The notes: generated from the sequence alone by a model not told the origin. Shown: positions 17,564-25,340, counted from the first letter of the stretch. The stretch: DNA of 29,094 bases from Eubacteriales bacterium (GCA_045612825.1 JAZKZU010000029.1:1-29094), one strand, 5' to 3'. Made by a program: numbers and translations.

Positions 17564-17666
17564 CCTTTTCTTGCAAGCTTGATTAAATTTTTTCCAATCG
17601 TTCATAATCTGTTGATTTACTCAACCCTTTTCTTATATTATAATAGTAGCAGAAAGGATGAATGGT

Positions 17667-20666
17667 ATGTTACAGTTAAAAAACATTAAGAAAGTATACG
17701 AGGCGGGCGAAAATTCGGTTCATGCCCTCAAAGGGATTTCCCTCTCGTTTCGTAAAAATGAATTTGTTTCCATTCTCGGTCCGTCGGGGTGCGGCAAGAC
17801 GACGATGCTCAACATTATCGGCGGTTTGGACGGATACACCGACGGCGATCTGATCATCAACGGTACCTCTACCAAGGACTATAAGGATCGGGATTGGGAC
17901 GCTTATCGCAACCATTCCATTGGTTTTGTTTTTCAGTCCTACAACCTCATCCCCCATCAGACGGTGCTCAAAAACGTGGAGCTGGCGCTGACGTTATCGG
18001 GTGTTAAGGCGAGTGAGCGCCGTGCCCGTGCCACCAAGGCGTTGATTGCGGTAGGTTTGGGCGATCAACTTAAAAAGAAGCCGGGCGAAATGTCGGGCGG
18101 GCAGATGCAGCGTGTGGCCATTGCCCGTGCGCTGGTTAACGACCCCGATATTATTCTGGCCGATGAGCCGACGGGTGCGCTGGACACCGAGACGAGCGTG
18201 CAGGTGATGGAACTGCTCAAAGAGATTGCCAAAGAAAAGCTGGTGATCATGGTCACCCACAATCCTGAGTTGGCGCAAGCCTATTCGACCCGTATCATCC
18301 GTATGCTGGACGGCGTGATCACGGCCGACTCGAACCCCCTTTCCGCCGACGAGGAGCAACCGAGCGCTCCCATGCCTCGACGCAAAAAGAGTCAAAAGAA
18401 GCCGTCGATGTCCTTCTTTACTTCGTTCGGATTATCGCTGACCAACCTGTTTACCAAAAAGGGACGGACGGTGCTGACCTCGTTTGCCGGCAGCATCGGC
18501 ATTATCGGGATTGCGCTCATTTATGCCGTATCCCAAGGCATGACCGCCTACATCAATCAGATCCAGGAGGACACCCTTTCTTCCTACCCGCTTACCATTG
18601 AGGCGACGACGGTGGATCTGGGTACGCTTATGCAGACCTTTATGGGGGCGGCCACCTCGGCGCAGGAGCATGACAAGGACGCCATATACTCCCAGCCGGT
18701 ACTTTTCGATATGATCAACGCCCTTAACAACATGGAGGCTACCGAGAACGATCTGGAATCTTTTAAGGCGTTTATTGATGCCGAGTTGGCTTTGCCCGAC
18801 AGTGAACTGCAAGGGGCGTTGACGGGTGTGCAGTACACTTATGATCCTGAACTTTTGGTTTACACCAAGTGTCCGGACGGTACGATTGTGTATTCCGACA
18901 CCCAGCAGTTATTAACCGATGCCCTTTACGAGCATTTTGGTATGGACCTGACCAACATGATGAGTTTTGGTGAGGAGACGGGCATGATGAGTGAATCGAT
19001 GATGTCGCTCAATCCTGCCATGAGTTCCACCATTCTTTGGACGGAGATGCTGTCCGCCAAGAATGGTGACTTGATTAACCCCGTACTCAAAAATCAGTAC
19101 GAGGTGGTGTACGGCGAGTGGCCGACCAGTTACAACGAGATTGTGCTGGTGCTGGATGAGAACAATGAACTGGATGACATGACCCTTTACGCCTTAGGGC
19201 TTATGACCAAGGAAGAGGTGGATTCGGTTTTTGATTCGGTGCTCAACAAGAAGCCGCTGACCTCCACCCTGCAAAAGTGGCCATATGAGAAGATTCGGGA
19301 GATGGATTTCCGTGTGGTGCTCAATTCCGACTGCTACACCTTGGATGAGGGCACGGGGTTATACACCGATTTACGGCAGACCGATGCCGGCTTGCGTTAT
19401 CTCTATGATAATGCGCTGACCCTTAAGATTTCGGGCATTATTCGTCCTACTGAGGATGCCTCCTCGACCATGCTGAGCGGTTCGATTGCCTATACTAAGG
19501 CGCTGACCGAGTACATTATGAATCACGCCTCTGACTCCCCTGCCGTGCAGGCGCAGTTGGCCGATACCCGCACCGATGTCTTTTCGGGGCTGCCCTTCAA
19601 TGAAAACACGGGCACGCTGGATGATGCGACCAAGGAGGCGGCGTTGCGGGAGCATTTGGCCGGACTGGACACGGCAGGCAAGGCCAAGGCCTTTATTGAC
19701 ATTATGAGCGTTCCCTCTGCCGAGCAGTTGCAGGCGTCCGTTGATCAATCGCTCTCGGCCATGGACCGTGCCGCCCGTGAGCAGGCGATTCAGTCGGCGC
19801 TGACTTCCCAGATGGGCATGAAGGAATCGGAGCTGGAAGAGTACATTACCGACATGAGCGACGAGGATTTGGAAGAACTGATGCGGGAAATGATCGAAGC
19901 GCAGGTGCGCATGCAGATGGCGGCGCAGGTACAGGCGCAGATGGCCAACGTTCCTGCACCCATGCTGGCGGCTCAGCTGGATGCGGCTCTTCCGAACTAT
20001 ACGACCGAGCAATGCGCTCTCTACTACGATGAGATTCTGGAATTTTCCGAGTCCTCGTTAGAGGCCAATCTGATTGAACTGGGTTACGTTGATCTCAATT
20101 CGCCGGCCACAGTCAATCTTTACGCCTCCTCCTTTGAGAACAAAGATACGGTGGAAGCGGTAATTGCCCGCTATAACGAGAGTCGTGAGGAGTTGCAGCA
20201 GGTACACTACACCGACTACGTGGGCATTATGATGAGTTCGATCACCACCATTATTGATGCCATCACCTATATTCTCATTGCGTTTGTGGCCATTTCGCTG
20301 GTGGTATCCTCCATTATGATTGGGGTAATCACCTTGATTTCGGTACAGGAGCGCACCAAGGAGATCGGTATTCTGCGGGCCATTGGCGCCAGCAAGCGTA
20401 ACGTATCGAGCATGTTCAATGCGGAGACCATGATCATCGGCTTTACTTCGGGGCTGGTTGGCGTGGGGTTGACCTATCTGCTGTGCCTACCCATCAATGC
20501 CATCATCCAAGCGCTGACGGGTATTCCCAATTTGCGAGCCGCTCTGCCGATTCCGGTGGCGGCTGTTCTGATCCTGATCAGCATGGGGCTGACCCTGCTA
20601 TCGGGCATCATTCCCTCCCGCAGTGCCGCCCGCAAAGACCCTGTTGTGGCGCTACGAACCGAGTAA
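17667..20666 (+). CDS. MacB-like fused ABC transporter (ATPase + FtsX permease with large extracellular domain)
   Basis: [87 protein letters not shown] favours ATG 17667. Confidence 0.93.
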
Positions 20667-20701
20667 CAAAATAAGGAGCAAGCATTACGCTTGCTCCTTT
20701 T
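20662..20701 (+). repeat. Boundary repeat copy 1 (hairpin AAGGAGCAAGC-ATTAC-GCTTGCTCCTT); contains the ABC gene stop codon
   Basis: 39/40 identical to 23469-23508; the hairpin core recurs at 24084-24110. Confidence 0.9.
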
Positions 20702-20702
20702 G

Positions 20703-21512
20703 CTATATCTTCTTCTTCCCACAACTATGGCAAACATTTTCATATCTTGTGTTGATGTTGCCGCAATATATGCAATGCCATTGTCCTCGATAATCTTTTC
20801 TTCTCCCGTCATTTAGCGGATATTTTTTTATTGCTTCCTTATCCGGTATCTCCTTCTGCATCTGATCTATTTCCCTATAAATTTGCTCTAATTCCTCTCT
20901 CTTCTTCTTATGCAATTCTCCAATTGTTAAAAATTCAATATTCCTTTGGGCTCCACAATCAAAACAAAGCATTCTTGTTGCTTCATTTATTTGTCCGCAC
21001 GACTCACAGTGCCAATCAAAGCGAGCATTAACTGCAGGAACAAGTTTATCCTCACCTTGACTAATCATTTCTTCTTGTATCTTTTGATATTCTTCTTCCT
21101 TTTCTGCCTTTTTTTCTTTCAACTGCATATATGCCATTATGACCTCAATGGGAATCTGCAATTGAGAATTATTATCTTCTTGATTTAATAGAGAAATTTC
21201 TCGCACCACATAGTGTTTCCATTGTTCCTTCTCGGAAATGTCTTCAACCATTTTCCCTATCTGCGCCGTTTTTTCCAAAAACTCTTTTAACAGCTCTCTA
21301 TATGTAGTTTCATTCTCATCTTGCTGGTTGTTTATTCTCTCTCTATATAGAAGTTCTACTATCTCATCACAACAAAGTTGATTTCTCAACCATATGCGAT
21401 ATAATGCCTGCAATTTAATAATGTCCTCTCTATCCTCTGGAAAAACAGAGTCTACACTTATGTTTGCCAGCACTCCAATAGCTGTTTCCTTCCACGCATT
21501 TTTTGGTAACAT
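20703..21512 (-). CDS. Hypothetical coiled-coil protein with two RanBP2-type zinc fingers
   Basis: WHCESCGQINEATRMLCFDC and WHCIYCGNINTRYENVCHSC both fit W-x-C-x2-C-x3-N-x6-C-x2-C. GAGGG RBS places the start at 21512. Confidence 0.78.
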   Translation of the reverse strand: MLPKNAWKETAIGVLANISVDSVFPEDREDIIKLQALYRIWLRNQLCCDEIVELLYRERINNQQDENETTYRELLKEFLEKTAQIGKMVEDISEKEQWKHYVVREISLLNQEDNNSQLQIPIEVIMAYMQLKEKKAEKEEEYQKIQEEMISQGEDKLVPAVNARFDWHCESCGQINEATRMLCFDCGAQRNIEFLTIGELHKKKREELEQIYREIDQMQKEIPDKEAIKKYPLNDGRRKDYRGQWHCIYCGNINTRYENVCHSCGKKKI

Positions 21513-21523
21513 GTTTTTCCCTC

Positions 21524-22123
21524 TCATTTCATTATGTTTCGTCCACACTTCTGGCAATATAAACTGTCTGCTGGGATTTTCTCTCCACAAAACCGACAAT
21601 ATATCTCTTCTTTTCTAGTCTGGAGTTGTTCCACTTTTGCTGTTTCATTTTTGAAATATTCTCTTGCCCCTAAATCGCCTTTTATTCGAAGCTTTTTTAC
21701 CTTCCTGCCATTTAGTCTATAAATTGTAAAAATTGTCGCTATTTGTGTCATAATTATGAGAAAAATAAACAGGCCTATCTTATTTTCCTTGTTTTCAATA
21801 AAAACTATAATTCCTACAATAAACACTGTAGTTAGATATCCGCCCGTCATTCCTATGAAAAACTTTAGAATATCGCCTTGTTCCCATGTCTTCCATGTTG
21901 CTCTTATATAAATAAATATTGTCACTAAAAATGATAGCACAGATGAAATTATAAAGTCGCGCCACTCCCCATTTTCATACAAACTTGCTATTCCGCCAAG
22001 AAAGTAAATCACAGAAGCTATTCCGAAAAAAAGAATTACTACTGATATAATATTCCAAAAATTTGCTTTCTCTCGCGCTATTTCTGGGTCTTGATTTGTT
22101 ATGTCATACCATATTCTTCCCAT
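21524..22123 (-). CDS. Membrane protein (about 4 TM) with C-terminal zinc ribbon
   Basis: Four hydrophobic segments; C-terminal YCRFCGEKIPADSLYCQKCG; AAGGAAGG RBS. Confidence 0.8.
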   Translation of the reverse strand: MGRIWYDITNQDPEIAREKANFWNIISVVILFFGIASVIYFLGGIASLYENGEWRDFIISSVLSFLVTIFIYIRATWKTWEQGDILKFFIGMTGGYLTTVFIVGIIVFIENKENKIGLFIFLIIMTQIATIFTIYRLNGRKVKKLRIKGDLGAREYFKNETAKVEQLQTRKEEIYCRFCGEKIPADSLYCQKCGRNIMK

Positions 22124-22125
22124 TA

Positions 22126-23133
22126 TTATCCCTTCCTTATTTCAGTTCCACACTTATTACAGAATCTGCTATCTCCAGGTAATTTTTCTCCGCATTTTCT
22201 ACAGAAAATGCTCTGCTTCTCTTCATTAAGTTGTTTTTCTTTCTCATTTTCTTCTTGTTCATCCTGCTTTGCATTTCTCTTTTTCCCTAAATCCTTGTTG
22301 TGTTCGATTTGAATAATCGCTTGATCACGGTATGTCTCTAGGTCTTCATTTATAATTTCGTATTCTTCTGGGAAAAATGCCCTTATATTGTTTTTCTCTT
22401 TGTATTGTATTGCACCTGTACAGCCATACGCAATATATTTTGCATCAAATAACTCTATTTCCTTTTGCAATATTTTCTTTGATATTTCCTTTTTTTCCTT
22501 GTCGTATGCGAGCCCTGCTTCATCTTTTTTCTTTTTTATTTCTTGAATACGCCGATCCGCTTCCTTTTTTGCTTTAAAGTCGAATATGCCTAATTGTTCT
22601 CGCATATTTAATAATTGATTATATTCTTCTGTTAGTTTCTGAAACAATATATTGTTTTTGCTTTTTTTTAAATCATGCTGTAGTTGATCTATGTCTATAT
22701 TGTTTTTTGTCAATGCCTTTTTTGCCGCCAATACAAGTTCTGGATGTTTGCGTATTTCATTTATATTATCTATTATTTCATCAATGCATACTTCGCTCCA
22801 TGCAAGGGCTTCATCAGAAGAAAAAAAATATTGCACTCTGTGTTTTTTCATGCCATTTTCTTTTTCCCATTTTTCCTTTTGTTTGCACAATGGACAATAC
22901 TCGTAATAACTATCAAAAATCCGCATTGCCTTTATTTGCGTAGGTTGCTTGCAAAAATCTTGTAATTTGTCAATTGTGTTTTTTTGCGCTTTTTCTTCTG
23001 CCTCTCTTTCTGTTCTCCCCACTCCTTTACCTGTAACTTCAACCATCCTAACCATAGGATATTCACAAGAAGAACACGTATATCCAATATATGCTCTTGT
23101 TTTGCTTGTTACCGAATAATATGTGCCTGTCAT
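22126..23133 (-). CDS. Hypothetical protein with N-terminal Cys pairs, coiled coil and C-terminal zinc ribbon
   Basis: CSSC...CPLC near the N-terminus; K/E-rich helical middle; FCRKCGEKLPGDSRFCNKCG at the C-terminus. GGGAGAG RBS places the start at 23133. Confidence 0.8.
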   Translation of the reverse strand: MTGTYYSVTSKTRAYIGYTCSSCEYPMVRMVEVTGKGVGRTEREAEEKAQKNTIDKLQDFCKQPTQIKAMRIFDSYYEYCPLCKQKEKWEKENGMKKHRVQYFFSSDEALAWSEVCIDEIIDNINEIRKHPELVLAAKKALTKNNIDIDQLQHDLKKSKNNILFQKLTEEYNQLLNMREQLGIFDFKAKKEADRRIQEIKKKKDEAGLAYDKEKKEISKKILQKEIELFDAKYIAYGCTGAIQYKEKNNIRAFFPEEYEIINEDLETYRDQAIIQIEHNKDLGKKRNAKQDEQEENEKEKQLNEEKQSIFCRKCGEKLPGDSRFCNKCGTEIRKG

Positions 23134-23169
23134 TATACTCTCTCCCTTTTTTCTCATACAAGCTACTTT

Positions 23170-23206
23170 TTACCCCATTTGAGTTTATTTTAACTTAAAG
23201 GGGTAA
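23170..23206. promoter_or_regulatory. Imperfect palindrome in divergent intergenic region (candidate operator)
   Basis: TTACCCC-ATTTGAGTT-tatttt-AACTTAAA-GGGGTAA, between the zinc-ribbon operon and the XRE gene. Confidence 0.4.
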
Positions 23207-23256
23207 GTTTTGCAAGAGGAAATGGGTATTCTTTTATTAGAAAAGAGGTGATACCC

Positions 23257-23376
23257 ATGACCATAGGTGAAGCGGTCAGAGATCGGATCTTGGAATTATG
23301 CGATCAACACGATCTTTCGATCAATAAATTATGCACGCTCAGTGGCGTAACACAGTCATACCCACAGAAGGCATAA
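23257..23376 (+). pseudogene. Truncated XRE-family HTH regulator (not in the ORF track)
   Basis: GAGGTG RBS; MTIGEAVRDRILELCDQHDLSINKLCTLSGVTQS matches the small clostridial XRE family. The frame then enters the repeat (YPQKA*) where the recognition helix should continue. Confidence 0.82.
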
Positions 23377-23438
23377 ACGCCAAAGCATACGTTTTTACCA
23401 AAAGTATGCCATCTGTGAGTCATATTAAACCGTGTAGC
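23350..23438 (-). ncRNA. Candidate structured ncRNA, copy A (3' end lost by fusion to the XRE gene)
   Basis: 86/89 identical to copy B; the differences are structure-neutral; lies downstream of a matching promoter. Confidence 0.45.
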
Positions 23439-23444
23439 ATGGTT

Positions 23445-23473
23445 ATTATATCACATTTCTTTTTATTTAGTAA
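23445..23473 (-). promoter_or_regulatory. sigmaA promoter, repeat copy A
   Basis: TTACTA, 17-nt spacer, TATAAT with extended TG. Confidence 0.6.
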
Positions 23474-23508
23474 CAAAAAAAGGAGCAAGCATTACGCTTG
23501 CTCCTTTT
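23469..23508 (+). repeat. Boundary repeat copy 2 (hairpin; also a plausible bidirectional terminator)
   Basis: AGTAACAAAAAAAGGAGCAAGC-ATTAC-GCTTGCTCCTTTT. Confidence 0.9.
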
Positions 23509-23509
23509 T

Positions 23510-23884
23510 TTATCGACACTTGGAACAGGGACGGTACCCCATCTGTTCCAGCTGTTCCACATTATAGCCCCAAAAGAAAGTATCGTCAAAATCCTCGCAC
23601 CCATACGCATGATACCGCTTATCCGATTCGTCTATCAATCCTATACAGTCTTCGTAGAACTGCAACTGTCTTTGCGCTTGCAGTTGATCGGCGAAAATCT
23701 TTATCTTTGATTCGTGTTCCATTTGCCGTTGTGCCTTTTCAAACTGCAAATCTGAGGACAACTCCTTGATCTGTTGTTCTTGTCTTTGGCATACTTGGCT
23801 CCCATATCCTATGGCAACGAATAACAACAAGATCAGGACGACAAGAATACAATCCCACCAACGCCATCCGTGTTTCTTTTTCAT
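23510..23884 (-). CDS. Small membrane-anchored protein with coiled coil and C-terminal His/Cys metal-binding motif (Ada-metal-binding-like)
   Basis: AGGAG RBS with ATG 23884; N-terminal TM segment (WWDCILVVLILLLFVAIG); YHAYGC...GYRPCSKC. Confidence 0.75.
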   Translation of the reverse strand: MKKKHGWRWWDCILVVLILLLFVAIGYGSQVCQRQEQQIKELSSDLQFEKAQRQMEHESKIKIFADQLQAQRQLQFYEDCIGLIDESDKRYHAYGCEDFDDTFFWGYNVEQLEQMGYRPCSKCR

Positions 23885-23897
23885 GCTGTGTGCTCCT

Positions 23898-23929
23898 AAA
23901 TAAAAAGTGTGCAGCCAAAGACTGCACAC
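23898..23929 (-). terminator. Intrinsic terminator ending the candidate ncRNA, just upstream of the RBS of 23510..23884
   Basis: Minus strand GTGTGCAGTC-ttt-GGCTGCACAC followed by TTTTTATTT. Confidence 0.75.
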
Positions 23930-24045
23930 CGAAAAATGCAGCCCGGCTCCGTTGCTACACAGTCATACCCACAGAAGGCATAATCGCCAAAGCATACATT
24001 TTTACCAAAAGTATGCCATCTGTGAGTCATATTAAACTGTGTAGC
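23900..24045 (-). ncRNA. Candidate structured ncRNA or attenuator leader, intact copy B (~146 nt; 92-nt rod at 24045-23954)
   Basis: Has its own promoter, with predicted +1 at the first base of a 10-bp terminal stem GCTACACAGT/ACTGTGTAGC. Inner stems ACTCACAGA/TCTGTGGGT and GGCATA/TATGCC; own terminator; duplicated in the window. Confidence 0.55.
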
Positions 24046-24051
24046 GTGATT

Positions 24052-24080
24052 ATTATATCACATTTCTTTTTATTTAGCAA
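24052..24080 (-). promoter_or_regulatory. sigmaA promoter, repeat copy B
   Basis: TTGCTA (24080-24075), 17-nt spacer, TATAAT (24057-24052) with extended TG. Confidence 0.7.
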
Positions 24081-24083
24081 CAA

Positions 24084-24110
24084 AAAGAGCAAGCATTACG
24101 CTTGCTCTTT
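24084..24110 (+). repeat. Boundary repeat copy 3 (hairpin AAAGAGCAAGC-ATTAC-GCTTGCTCTTT); the MFS stop codon lies in its loop
   Basis: Same core and loop as copies 1 and 2, with a compensatory G-C to A-T change in both arms. Confidence 0.88.
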
Positions 24111-25340
24111 GTTCTTTTTGAAGTATCGCATCAAAATCAATAGCACAATAACGCCCAATATGGGGAAGACGGCACTGGTCAACATTCCGGCTTTCATGCC
24201 GATCTGGTCGACCGTCATGCCTGTGGATTGGCTGAGTGTTTGCGCCATGGGGGAAGCCGCCACCGTATCGATCACCACGCCCATCATCTGCGGGGCGACC
24301 GAGGCGCCCAAGTCGCCGCCGACGGCCATCAGGGCAAAGGCGACCACGCCTGCGCCTTCCACGTTTTCTTCCATGGCGATCAACATACCGGGCCAGAGCA
24401 TAGAAGTAAAGACGCCGGTGAGGATGCAGGCCACGAAGGAGATGGCGACGTTTCCTATCAGCCCTACCGTCAGATAGCAGGCGACCGCTCCGATCATGCC
24501 GACAAGCAGAGTCGGCAAAATTTTCTTGCCGAATTTGGCGTAGGCGATACGGGACAGGCCCAAGAGAATGGCAAACATGGCCAGACCCAGCACATCGCCC
24601 AAGGCCTTATCGATGCCAAGGGCCGTTTCCATAAAGCCCGACACCCAACTGGTCATGGCGTTTTCGGCGCAACTGCCAAAGAAGATGCCGCCAAAGCATA
24701 GCGCCAAGCCGATTACACGGCGTTTGATAGTGCTTTGGCGTTTTGTTGTTTCGGGTGCGGTCATATCCGGCATCGGCGAACGGGCAAACAACAGGGCGGC
24801 CACGATCGGCCAAGCGGCCAGAATCAAGGTTAAAATCTGCCAATGCTCCTTGCCGAATACTTTGAGAAACAGCGTACTGAACACCACAACGGTAAAGACA
24901 CCAAAGGCGTAAAGCGAATGGAGCAAACTCATATCCCGTTGAGGGTTATCGGACGGGATGGCGGCAATGGTGGGGCTGAGCAACACCTCAGACAGTCCTG
25001 CCGACACCGAAAAAATGACCGTACCAATCACCAGTCCCGCATAGACCTGATCGGGAAACCACATCGGCAACAGGGCATACAGGGCCAGACCTGCCGTGGT
25101 GATCAGCGGCATCAGCCACAGAATCCGATCGACCCGCCAGCGTTTACCGAACAGGGTAAAGGCCAGATCGACAGCCATTTGGGTGAAGAAATTGACCAGC
25201 ACCAACGTGCCGAGCAAGGTGTAGGATATGCCGTACATTTCGTGCAAGGGCACCAGCAACACCGGCGGCAAGCCAAAAATAGATGCCATGGTAAAATAGG
25301 CCGAATAGCAGGCCAGCTTTGTTCTTTTATACTTAGGCAT
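24096..25340 (-). CDS. MFS transporter
   Basis: About 12 hydrophobic segments; SPTIAAIPSDNPQRDMSLLHSLYAFG; GDLGASVAP. AAGGAAG RBS places the start at 25340. Confidence 0.88.
   Translation of the reverse strand: MPKYKRTKLACYSAYFTMASIFGLPPVLLVPLHEMYGISYTLLGTLVLVNFFTQMAVDLAFTLFGKRWRVDRILWLMPLITTAGLALYALLPMWFPDQVYAGLVIGTVIFSVSAGLSEVLLSPTIAAIPSDNPQRDMSLLHSLYAFGVFTVVVFSTLFLKVFGKEHWQILTLILAAWPIVAALLFARSPMPDMTAPETTKRQSTIKRRVIGLALCFGGIFFGSCAENAMTSWVSGFMETALGIDKALGDVLGLAMFAILLGLSRIAYAKFGKKILPTLLVGMIGAVACYLTVGLIGNVAISFVACILTGVFTSMLWPGMLIAMEENVEGAGVVAFALMAVGGDLGASVAPQMMGVVIDTVAASPMAQTLSQSTGMTVDQIGMKAGMLTSAVFPILGVIVLLILMRYFKKNKEQA

What the first reader, a model, noticed from the sequence alone, without database searches (positions are those of the whole stretch)
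20662..24110. Integrase-less modular cassette array bounded by three copies of one hairpin, between two convergent stop codons
Seen: the core GAGCAAGC-ATTAC-GCTTGCTC occurs at 20662-20701, 23469-23508 (39/40 identical to the first) and 24084-24110. The ABC gene's TAA lies in the left copy and the MFS gene's TAA lies in the loop of the right copy. The repeats delimit a ~2.8-kb AT-rich module and a ~0.6-kb module. Both have the same polarity: hairpin, promoter, structured RNA, then minus-strand cargo genes. Established: integrative elements often target gene 3' ends and duplicate the att core, and tandem accretion gives such arrays. Inference: either a site-specific cassette-capture site (11-bp arms, 5-nt asymmetric spacer, recombinase in trans) or a recombination hotspot anchored on the conserved terminator-promoter-RNA unit. 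The compensatory change in both arms of copy 3 shows selection on the hairpin and fits a simple attL/attR hybrid less well.
Basis: partly seen in the sequence, partly recalled or inferred. Interest (0 to 1): 0.75.

Follow-up and report, generated by a model that had tools for sequence, protein, structure and literature searches.

The report
Swappable gene modules between terminator hairpins
The terminator hairpin shared by two tail-to-tail transporter genes in an uncultured ruminant-gut bacterium marks a slot where small self-regulated gene modules are gained, lost and swapped between strains and species, most likely by ordinary recombination at the hairpin rather than by a dedicated cassette-capture enzyme.

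Summary
The hairpin occurs three times (20676-20696, 23483-23503, 24087-24107; none expected by chance). The ABC stop codon lies in the left 40-bp repeat and the MFS stop codon lies in the loop of the right copy.

- Three related species have ABC-one hairpin-MFS.
- At least four species carry only the 0.6-kb module.
- Near-identical strains in three independent metagenomes skip exactly 20666/20697 to 23475/23506.
- A strain of a sister species carries different cargo between three hairpins.

Both modules are far more alike across species (93-100%) than their flanks (77-90%).

The details favour ordinary recombination over an integron-like system:
- The right joint of module 1 is a 9-nt microhomology that cuts an XRE repressor gene.
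- Its left joint lies in the hairpin's T-tract.
- The exchanged tract of module 2 ends about 80 nt beyond the hairpin.
- Loops differ between copies.
- No integron integrase, serine recombinase or Y1 transposase was found in this 85.6%-complete MAG.

The hairpin is the only perfectly conserved stretch in DNA that is about 80% identical. A trans-acting recombinase is not excluded (about 15%).

The "structured RNA" is a real, multi-copy leader family absent from Rfam. The scan had already noted it on this window and in another genome.

The parts
17658..20666 (+). ABC ATPase-FtsX permease fusion gene (1002 aa), the left conserved flank
   Evidence: Pfam ABC_tran 4.5e-33 and FtsX 1.3e-18. It is syntenic in all relatives.
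20662..20701 (.). Hairpin copy H1 (stem-loop 20673-20699) with the ABC stop codon in its left flank
   Evidence: terminator-like on the minus strand. Identity to L093 switches from about 80% to 93-99% exactly here.
20703..21599 (-). Module 1 cargo gene 3: protein with two RanBP-type zinc fingers. Likely start at 21512, giving 269 aa. Its stop lies 5 nt from H1.
   Evidence: Pfam Zn_ribbon_RanBP 3.5e-09. Homologues of 270 aa sit at the same place in L093 and L094.
21524..22123 (-). Module 1 cargo gene 2: 199-aa membrane protein with a C-terminal zinc ribbon
   Evidence: Pfam Zn_Ribbon_1 1.2e-05. The translation shows hydrophobic segments.
22126..23157 (-). Module 1 cargo gene 1: 343-aa coiled-coil protein with a C-terminal zinc ribbon. 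Homologues are called as 263-266 aa.
   Evidence: Pfam Zn_Ribbon_1 3.2e-07. Only two homologous clusters were found among 5.8 billion proteins, both at this same locus. No PADLOC match.
23158..23256 (.). Divergent promoter region with a palindromic operator-like repeat, between the cargo operon and the XRE gene
   Evidence: Promoter-like TTGCAA-17-TAAAAT at 23187-23215 on the minus strand. The same palindrome lies in front of XRE genes in L042 and L093.
23257..23358 (+). Truncated XRE-family HTH repressor gene (first 34 codons). The break is at the microhomology ACACAGTCA (23350-23358).
   Evidence: Full-length 80-aa homologues are in L093 (HTH_26 1.5e-10) and L042. Joint read.
23350..23468 (-). 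Second copy of the promoter plus the 5' two-thirds of the leader RNA. It lacks the RNA's own terminator.
   Evidence: 95% identical to 23957-24089. Covariance model R1 scores 78 bits, E 2e-17.
23469..23508 (.). Hairpin copy H2. Its left flank AGTAACAAAAAAAGG duplicates the species' native ABC stop region.
   Evidence: Compared with the module-1-free strain L098.
23510..23884 (-). Module 2 cargo: 124-aa protein with an N-terminal membrane anchor and a C-terminal Cys motif. No known family.
   Evidence: three homologous clusters only.
23902..24045 (-). Leader RNA: long covarying hairpin followed by an intrinsic terminator (23906-23930)
   Evidence: Folding z-score -5.3. 15 of 39 pairs show compensatory changes across 5 sequences. 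R1 matches 22 of 61 genomes, 6 matches in this genome. No Rfam family.
24052..24080 (-). Promoter of module 2: TTGCTA-17-TATAAT with an extended -10 TG
24084..24110 (.). Hairpin copy H3, a bidirectional terminator. Its right arm and loop encode the last MFS residues (EQA) and the stop codon.
   Evidence: Terminator-like on both strands. MFS ORF end. The right arm is kept as coding sequence in G003, which lacks the left arm.
24096..25340 (-). MFS transporter gene (414 aa as in the homologues), the right conserved flank
   Evidence: Pfam MFS_1 6.4e-18. Orthologues.

Best explanation
The space between the convergent ABC and MFS genes is a hypervariable cargo slot.

**The hairpin.** It is the shared bidirectional intrinsic terminator. 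Its right arm and loop also encode the MFS C-terminus and stop codon. It therefore stays identical over 23-28 bp while the flanks diverge to about 80%.

**The modules.** Self-contained units sit in the slot. Each has its own promoter, its own regulator (either the leader RNA with an attenuator, or an XRE repressor with an operator) and its cargo. Each is closed by a hairpin copy that terminates and insulates it.

**How modules move.** Incoming DNA from related strains or species recombines at this island of identity, or in the adjacent conserved MFS end. This is inferred to be RecA-type recombination on short homology. The other end is often sealed by microhomology, that is, homology-facilitated illegitimate recombination. 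Unequal recombination between hairpin copies stacks modules. Recombination between direct copies deletes them and leaves one hairpin.

**History of this window.** Module 2 is old and mostly vertical. Module 1 came recently from another species, lost the 3' end of its repressor gene at the joint, and was stacked beside module 2.

**Shown:** the alleles, the identity tracts and the joints.

**Inferred:** the enzymes, the route of DNA entry and the order of steps.
For: **Alleles.**
- Empty sites in three species.
- Module 2 alone in G001, L095-97, L098, L104/105, L111 and L113.
- Contigs from three independent runs skip 2806-2811 nt between H1 and H2.
- L093 groups with G001 on the locus tree. 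It carries module 1 plus a YpsA/SLOG-like XRE module between three hairpins and has no module 2.

**Identity tracts.**
- Module 1 is mostly 93-99% identical to L093, against 76-87% in the flanks. The switch falls at H1.
- Module 2 is 95-100% identical to L111, against 77-90% in the flanks. The tract ends about 80 nt beyond H3.

**Joints.**
- A 9-nt microhomology at 23350-23358 truncates the XRE gene.
- Module 1's left joint is in the hairpin's T-tract.
- H2's left flank equals the native ABC stop region.
- The XRE gene in L093's first module has an internal deletion at a GGGTATT microhomology.

**Enzymes.**
- No serine recombinase and no Y1 transposase were found.
- The tyrosine recombinases are XerD, a XerC-like protein and two divergent ones on other contigs. 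None reaches the integron-integrase cut-off.
- ComEC and DprA are present.
Against: - Every module boundary seen in this genus carries the same hairpin in the same orientation.
- A 48%-identical homologue of the module 2 gene sits in a different genomic context (L103) and is still followed by a hairpin with the same stem.
- A second locus per genome has the same 9-bp stem. Chance is unlikely to give this, so the hairpin seems to travel with modules, as a cassette-borne recombination site would.
- 25-40 bp is at the lower limit for RecA-dependent exchange.
- The origin of the first hairpin duplication is not explained.
- The genome is 85.6% complete, so a recombinase could be missed.
- ComEC and DprA are common genes and are weak evidence for competence.
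Confidence: 0.6

Rival explanations
1. The hairpin is a true site-specific recombination site: 9-11-bp inverted arms around a 5-nt asymmetric spacer. A recombinase encoded elsewhere acts on it, for example XerC/XerD or one of the two orphan tyrosine recombinases. Modules excise as circles carrying one hairpin and re-integrate at another hairpin, as with integron cassettes or Acinetobacter pdif modules.
For: - Hairpin copies lie in direct orientation at all module boundaries.
- Strain alleles lack module 1 precisely between H1 and H2.
- The identity switch falls at H1.
- The hairpin accompanies the module 2 homologue in another context and occurs at a second variable locus.
- XerD and a XerC-like gene are present.
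Against: - The right joint of module 1 is a microhomology joint inside a gene.
- H2's left flank shows a crossover about 14 nt outside the stem.
- Module 2's exchanged tract ends about 80 nt beyond H3.
- Loops differ between copies in one array: ATTAG, CTTAC and ATTAC in L093, and GTTAT and ATTAC in L111. A tyrosine recombinase needs matching spacers.
- The 5-nt spacer is shorter than the 6-8 nt of known tyrosine-recombinase sites (own knowledge).
- The insertion at the second locus does not duplicate the hairpin.
- No recombinase is linked.
Confidence: 0.15
2. There were no insertions. An ancestral large array at this locus has been inherited vertically and trimmed differently in each lineage by deletion between the direct hairpin repeats. 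The window simply kept more of it.
For: - Module 1 sits at the same locus in a distant species, L094.
- Module 2 diverges with, or faster than, its flanks between the window and G001/L095. ORF124 is 65-69% identical against flanks of about 80%.
- Direct repeats of 28-40 bp promote deletion.
Against: - Module 1 is mostly 93-99% identical between two species whose flanks are 76-87% identical.
- Module 2 is 95-100% identical between the window and L111, against flanks of 77-90%.
- Conspecific strains carry non-overlapping cargo: L093 against G001/L095.
- The promoter-RNA copy in module 1 is 95% identical to the window's own module 2 but only 82% identical to G001's. It is therefore a recent, within-species addition.
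Confidence: 0.1
3. The hairpin itself causes the rearrangements. It would stall replication or be cut as a cruciform, and repair would capture or duplicate DNA at its base. Homology would play no special role.
For: Three independent illegitimate joints lie in the T-tract directly after a hairpin: the left end of module 1, the end of ORF124, and the insertion at the second locus.
Against: - This does not explain why exchanged tracts between species begin at the hairpin and end in conserved MFS sequence.
- It does not explain why whole hairpins are retained on both sides.
Confidence: 0.1
4. The three-hairpin arrangement in the window is a metagenomic assembly chimera of two strain alleles.
For: - The genome is a fragmented MAG of 288 contigs.
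- Contigs of other samples break at the hairpin (L099, L100).
- No independent contig was seen to bridge the module 1 joints.
Against: - The XRE-RNA joint shares only 9 nt with either parental form.
- H2's flank is a hybrid found in neither parent.
- The two promoter-RNA copies differ at 5% of positions. These features cannot arise from a k-mer mis-join.
- A comparable three-hairpin array was assembled independently in L093.
Confidence: 0.05

Closest known systems
Minimal mobile elements of Neisseria: strain-specific cassettes between conserved flanking genes, exchanged by transformation and homologous recombination (discussed in PMC3082526 and PMC1538595)
   Same: - One chromosomal slot between two conserved genes holds different, unrelated gene sets in different strains.
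- There are no mobility genes in the cargo.
- Exchange crosses species boundaries.
   Different: - Here the crossover is concentrated on a 25-40-bp terminator hairpin at each module border, not somewhere in the flanking genes.
- Modules can be stacked in tandem, each with its own hairpin copy.
Homology-facilitated illegitimate recombination and sequential displacement arrays, for example the Vibrio cholerae T6SS effector-immunity arrays (PMC5361080; mechanism in PMC3240628)
   Same: One end of the incoming DNA is anchored by homology and the other is sealed at a few bases of microhomology. Repeated rounds leave arrays with truncated remnants. Here the remnants are a cut XRE gene and a cut leader RNA.
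   Different: The anchor here can be as short as a terminator hairpin. The cargo is not effector-immunity pairs. Neither competence nor the mechanism was demonstrated.
Acinetobacter pdif modules: modules bounded by XerC/XerD sites, with the recombinase in trans (PMC6449649, PMC7399989, PMC13141974)
   Same: Integrase-less modules are bounded by short palindromic sites and are shuffled between replicons or genomes. The recombinase is not linked.
   Different: - pdif sites have a 6-nt spacer and alternate in orientation. They are plasmid-borne.
- Here the spacer is 5 nt, the arms are a perfect palindrome, all copies are direct, and the locus is chromosomal.
- Several joints fall outside the site.
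Integron gene cassettes (attC hairpins recombined by IntI)
   Same: Hairpin-forming sites separate cassettes arranged in one orientation. Empty and differently filled arrays occur.
   Different: - There is no IntI.
- The cassettes carry their own promoters and regulators.
- The hairpin is a 27-nt perfect terminator that overlaps a stop codon. It is not a 57-141-nt imperfect attC.
- The joints are imprecise.
Phage morons (promoter-gene-terminator units inserted between genes; own knowledge)
   Same: Module 2 is a complete transcription unit of promoter, leader, one gene and terminator, placed between two unrelated genes.
   Different: The setting is chromosomal rather than a prophage. The terminator is a copy of the resident one.

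Membership tests
Integron | An integron integrase gene (intI) with attI next to the array | tested here: not met
   No tyrosine recombinase lies on the 29-kb contig. The four found elsewhere score 28-138 bits against the integron-integrase models, whose cut-offs are 265 and 435 bits. The genome is 85.6% complete.
Integron | attC sites: imperfect 57-141-nt palindromes with extrahelical bases | tested here: not met
   The site is a perfect 9-11-bp stem with a 5-nt loop, 27 nt in all. The attC definition is from my own knowledge.
Integron | Promoterless cassettes expressed from a common promoter | tested here: not met
   Each module has its own promoter-like site and regulator.
Xer-dependent (pdif-type) modules | 28-nt site with two 11-nt arms and a 6-nt spacer, in alternating orientation around modules | tested here: not met
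   The spacer is 5 nt and all three copies are in direct orientation. The organism's own dif site was not determined.
Xer-dependent (pdif-type) modules | XerC and XerD present in the host | tested here: met
   XerD equivalog at 341.8 bits (cut-off 329.6). A XerC-like neighbour scores 218 bits, below its cut-off.
Recombination hotspot / minimal mobile element | The same conserved flanking genes hold different gene content among strains and species | tested here: met
   Five allele types were found: empty; module 2 alone; module 1 plus module 2; module 1 plus a SLOG module; module 1 alone.
Recombination hotspot / minimal mobile element | No mobility genes in the variable segment | tested here: met
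   Pfam and PADLOC scans of all cargo ORFs gave only zinc ribbons and an HTH.
Recombination hotspot / minimal mobile element | Transfer by homologous recombination: high-identity tracts with variable ends in conserved sequence | tested here: met
   Module 2's tract ends about 80 nt inside MFS. Module 1's tract begins in H1. The enzyme was not tested.
Bidirectional intrinsic terminator | G+C-rich stem-loop followed by a T-run on both strands, between convergent genes | tested here: met
   H3 scores on both strands and H1 on the minus strand. In the empty sites the single hairpin lies between the two stop codons. Termination itself was not assayed.

The most novel reading that the evidence does not exclude
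The hairpin is a true, module-borne recombination site. An unlinked host recombinase would use it to move promoter-equipped gene modules between terminator positions in gut Clostridia. That would be a chromosomal, integrase-less cassette system in which one element serves as terminator, insulator and recombination site.
Probability: 0.13. Interest if true: 0.8.

Novelty: new variant of a known kind. Interest (0 to 1): 0.5.

Why it matters
**Cassette exchange without a mobility gene.** A functional element kept identical by double constraint (terminator plus stop-codon overlap) can act as portable homology. It lets species that differ by about 20% in sequence swap small accessory modules without any mobility gene. 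It also lets such modules stack into arrays that look like integron arrays.

**Genome mining.** Hairpin-bounded arrays should not be read as site-specific systems without inspecting the joints.

**Accessory gene flow in uncultured gut Firmicutes.** The locus shows how such flow can happen.

**Material for further work.** The locus offers natural allele series for testing short-homology recombination. It also links two portable regulatory units, an XRE-operator unit and a new multi-copy leader RNA, to orphan zinc-ribbon cargo of unknown function.

Tried and rejected
- **Rfam.** Gathering thresholds on the whole window and E-value 10 or lower on 23150-24150 gave no credible family. The hits only reflect the terminator hairpin.
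- **Genome-wide repeat.** Rejected: there are two loci per genome in the genus.
- **The exact 21-mer in public genomes and metagenomes.** It gave 13 + 2 stretches. Apart from this genus they are unrelated contexts (Aminipila, a Burkholderiales MAG and other Clostridia) with no leader RNA. By my own rough estimate, that number is what chance would give among hundreds of millions of terminators.
- **Inverted-repeat element next to the hairpin in one Clostridiales MAG (L051).** It is not present in this genome.
- **PADLOC** found nothing for the cargo.
- **Wider allele sampling.** The family search was limited to 12 held genomes.
- **One contig in run X5.** It joins 23336 to 20668 and 20700 to 23902, but the matching sides are only 30-33 nt. 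I could not interpret it.
- **Not attempted.** Structure prediction of the cargo proteins, and any complex prediction.

Full report
**1. Observation**

- The core GAGCAAGC-ATTAC-GCTTGCTC is exact at 20676-20696, 23483-23503 and 24087-24107. None was found in 100 dinucleotide-preserving shuffles.
- Copies 1 and 2 share a 40-45-nt register. Copy 3 is shorter and more diverged.
- The ABC-FtsX gene (17658-20666, +) ends with its TAA inside the left repeat.
- The MFS gene (minus strand, ending at 24096) has its stop codon in the loop of copy 3. Its last codons (EQA) form the right arm.
- Segment 20702-23350 has 32-38% GC, against about 50-57% around it.
- A consensus scan calls copy 3 terminator-like on both strands and copy 1 on the minus strand.
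- The window is a whole contig of a 1.33-Mb, 288-contig, 85.6%-complete MAG.
- Its relatives are uncultured Eubacteriales MAGs. Close strains occur in goat and bovine gut metagenomes.

**2.

Module 2 (23509-24083) is a complete minus-strand transcription unit:
- a promoter, TTGCTA-17-TATAAT with an extended -10 TG (24052-24080);
- a leader RNA (23902-24045) that ends in an intrinsic terminator (23906-23930);
- a ribosome-binding site;
- a 124-aa membrane-anchored orphan protein (23510-23884), whose stop lies a few bases from hairpin copy 2.

Module 1 carries three minus-strand genes for zinc-ribbon proteins. They have their own promoter and a palindromic operator. A divergent plus-strand XRE repressor gene follows, but it stops being homologous after codon 34.

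Full-length 80-aa versions of that repressor exist in L093 and L042. At 23350-23358 the XRE gene and the leader RNA share ACACAGTCA. From there to copy 2 the sequence is a 95% copy of the promoter and the 5' two-thirds of module 2's leader. The right end of module 1 is therefore a microhomology joint, not a clean cassette end.

The left flank of copy 2, AGTAACAAAAAAAGG, is the native ABC stop region of this species, as seen in strain L098, which lacks module 1. It is not the sequence that precedes copy 3.

**3. Related genomes: the alleles**

| Allele | Where found |
|---|---|
| ABC-one hairpin-MFS, with the MFS stop in the loop | G007, G005, G002 |
| Module 2 only | G001; 24 contigs of one JGI/ENA lineage; L098, L104 and L105 of the window's own species; two further species, L111 and L113 |
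| Strains lacking module 1: contigs jump from 20666, 20668 or 20697 to 23478, 23475 or 23506 | Three independent runs, X2, X5 and X8 |
| Three hairpins, two modules, no module 2 | L093 |
| Module 1 with an intact XRE gene and only one hairpin, at the MFS end. ABC has a different terminator. | L094, a more distant species |
| MFS keeps the right arm as coding sequence but there is no left arm | G003 |

L093 falls within the G001 species on a tree built from the ABC 3' end plus MFS. Its full order is:
- ABC;
- hairpin;
- module 1, with an internally deleted XRE gene;
- hairpin;
- a YpsA/SLOG-like gene with an intact XRE gene;
- hairpin;
- MFS.

**4. Direction and mode of change**

- *Module 1.* Between the window and L093 the flanks are 76-87% identical. 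Module 1 is mostly 93-99% identical (range 84-99% in 300-nt bins). The switch falls at copy 1.
- *Module 2, exchanged.* Between the window and L111 the flanks are 77-90% identical and module 2 is 95-100% identical. That tract starts at copy 2 and ends about 80 nt beyond copy 3, inside MFS.
- *Module 2, vertical.* Against G001 and L095, module 2 diverges like its flanks or faster. It is therefore old and mostly vertical, with occasional exchange and loss.
- *Module 1's left joint.* It lies in the T-tract after the hairpin. Only TTTT is shared with the corresponding end in L094.
- *L093's first XRE gene.* It has an internal deletion at a GGGTATT microhomology.
- *Loops.* They differ between copies: ATTAG, CTTAC and ATTAC in L093, and GTTAT and ATTAC in L111.

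The breakpoints cluster at the hairpin but are not fixed within it, and they are mixed with microhomology joints. This pattern fits recombination on the only perfectly conserved stretch in otherwise diverged DNA, combined with illegitimate end-joining.

A workable path to the window's arrangement has three steps:
1. A module 1 allele recombined with a module 2 allele at ACACAGTCA.
2. The product recombined unequally with a module 2 strain, at or just left of the hairpin. This stacked both modules.
3. The 5% difference between the two promoter-RNA copies fits two strain origins.

The order of these steps is inferred.

**5. Recombinases**

- No serine recombinase and no Y1 transposase were found.
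- Four tyrosine recombinases lie on other contigs: XerD, a XerC-like neighbour and two divergent ones. None approaches the integron-integrase cut-offs.
- ComEC and DprA are present. Both are common genes.

**6. What keeps the site-specific reading alive**

- The same stem occurs at a second locus in five genomes of the genus.
- At that locus the window's genome has an 860-bp insertion directly after the hairpin: a DUF5067 lipoprotein gene and an XRE gene with their own terminator. G001 has other cargo there. G005, G003 and G007 are empty. That insertion does not duplicate the hairpin.
- In L103, a 48%-identical homologue of ORF124 with the same leader RNA sits in a different context. It is still followed by AGAGCAAGC-GGAAT-GCTTGCTCT.

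The hairpin can therefore move with a module. I cannot explain how the first duplicate arose.

**7. The RNA**

- Five homologues from four families of the order give a consensus with 15 of 39 pairs supported by compensatory changes.
- A covariance model finds it in 22 of 61 related genomes, with six matches in this genome and up to eight in another, sometimes in tandem.
- It lies ahead of very diverse genes: zinc-ribbon proteins, small membrane proteins, lipoproteins and AMP-ligase-like enzymes.
- It always has a sequence-conserved terminator.
- It is not in Rfam 15.
- The scan had already noted it on this window and on another genome.
- Elsewhere it follows other terminators. The hairpin is therefore a feature of this locus, not of the RNA unit.

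**8. Verdict**

The joints argue for a recombination hotspot on a doubly constrained terminator, not a dedicated cassette-capture machine.

My probabilities:
- short-homology plus illegitimate recombination: about 0.6;
- trans-acting site-specific recombinase: 0.15;
- vertical inheritance with loss only: 0.1;
- hairpin-induced breakage: 0.1;
- assembly artefact: 0.05.

This is a new variant of the minimal-mobile-element or hotspot kind, of moderate interest.

Noticed in passing
window 23902-24045 (-), partial copy 23350-23438 (-); also G000 contigs C238, C260, C80, C121: A leader RNA family absent from Rfam. It has an outer helix GCUACACAG/CUGUGUAGC, a variable covarying middle helix and a conserved apex (GGCAUAC...GGUAAAAAUGUAUGCC). 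CAACAG and a sequence-conserved intrinsic terminator follow. It has six matches in this genome, occurs in 22 of 61 related genomes and is sometimes in tandem. The downstream genes are very diverse.
   Followed up: partly
G000:C204 (L036 1501-2400): A second locus has a hairpin with the same stem (loop GAAAT) between convergent genes. Here an 860-bp unit is inserted in the T-tract after the hairpin: a DUF5067 lipoprotein gene, a divergent XRE gene and their own terminator. The site is empty in G005, G003 and G007, and G001 has other cargo there.
   Followed up: partly
L103 1230-1415 and 1986-2012: In another species the leader RNA plus an ORF124 homologue lies downstream of an AraC gene. A partial second copy of the AraC terminator hairpin lies just upstream of the module's promoter. 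The module ends in the GAGCAAGC-stem hairpin.
   Followed up: no
L051 5560-6760 (Clostridiales MAG JAAVHQ010000020.1): The identical 21-nt hairpin abuts a small unit made of a zinc-finger ORF and a divergent XRE gene. The unit is flanked by inverted repeats of about 130 nt. One arm recurs next to the hairpin on another contig of that MAG (L055). It looks like a MITE-like or transposon-like carrier. It is not present in the window's genome.
   Followed up: partly
window 23158-23256; L042 2990-3030; L093 (two copies): A conserved palindrome (CCCTTTTGAGTT...AACTCAAAAGGG type) lies between XRE genes and divergent cargo in several families of the order. This suggests a portable repressor-operator unit that regulates varied cargo.
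   Followed up: no
L099 and L100 (contig ends): Two independent metagenome contigs stop 44 nt past the MFS stop codon, at the hairpin. This is expected if strains with different content coexist in those samples.
   Followed up: no
window 23336/20668 and 20700/23902 (run X5): One contig, at a depth of 28.5, joins the XRE gene, a hairpin and the leader-terminator region in an order not seen in any assembled allele. The matching sides are only 30-33 nt, so it may come from another organism.
   Followed up: no
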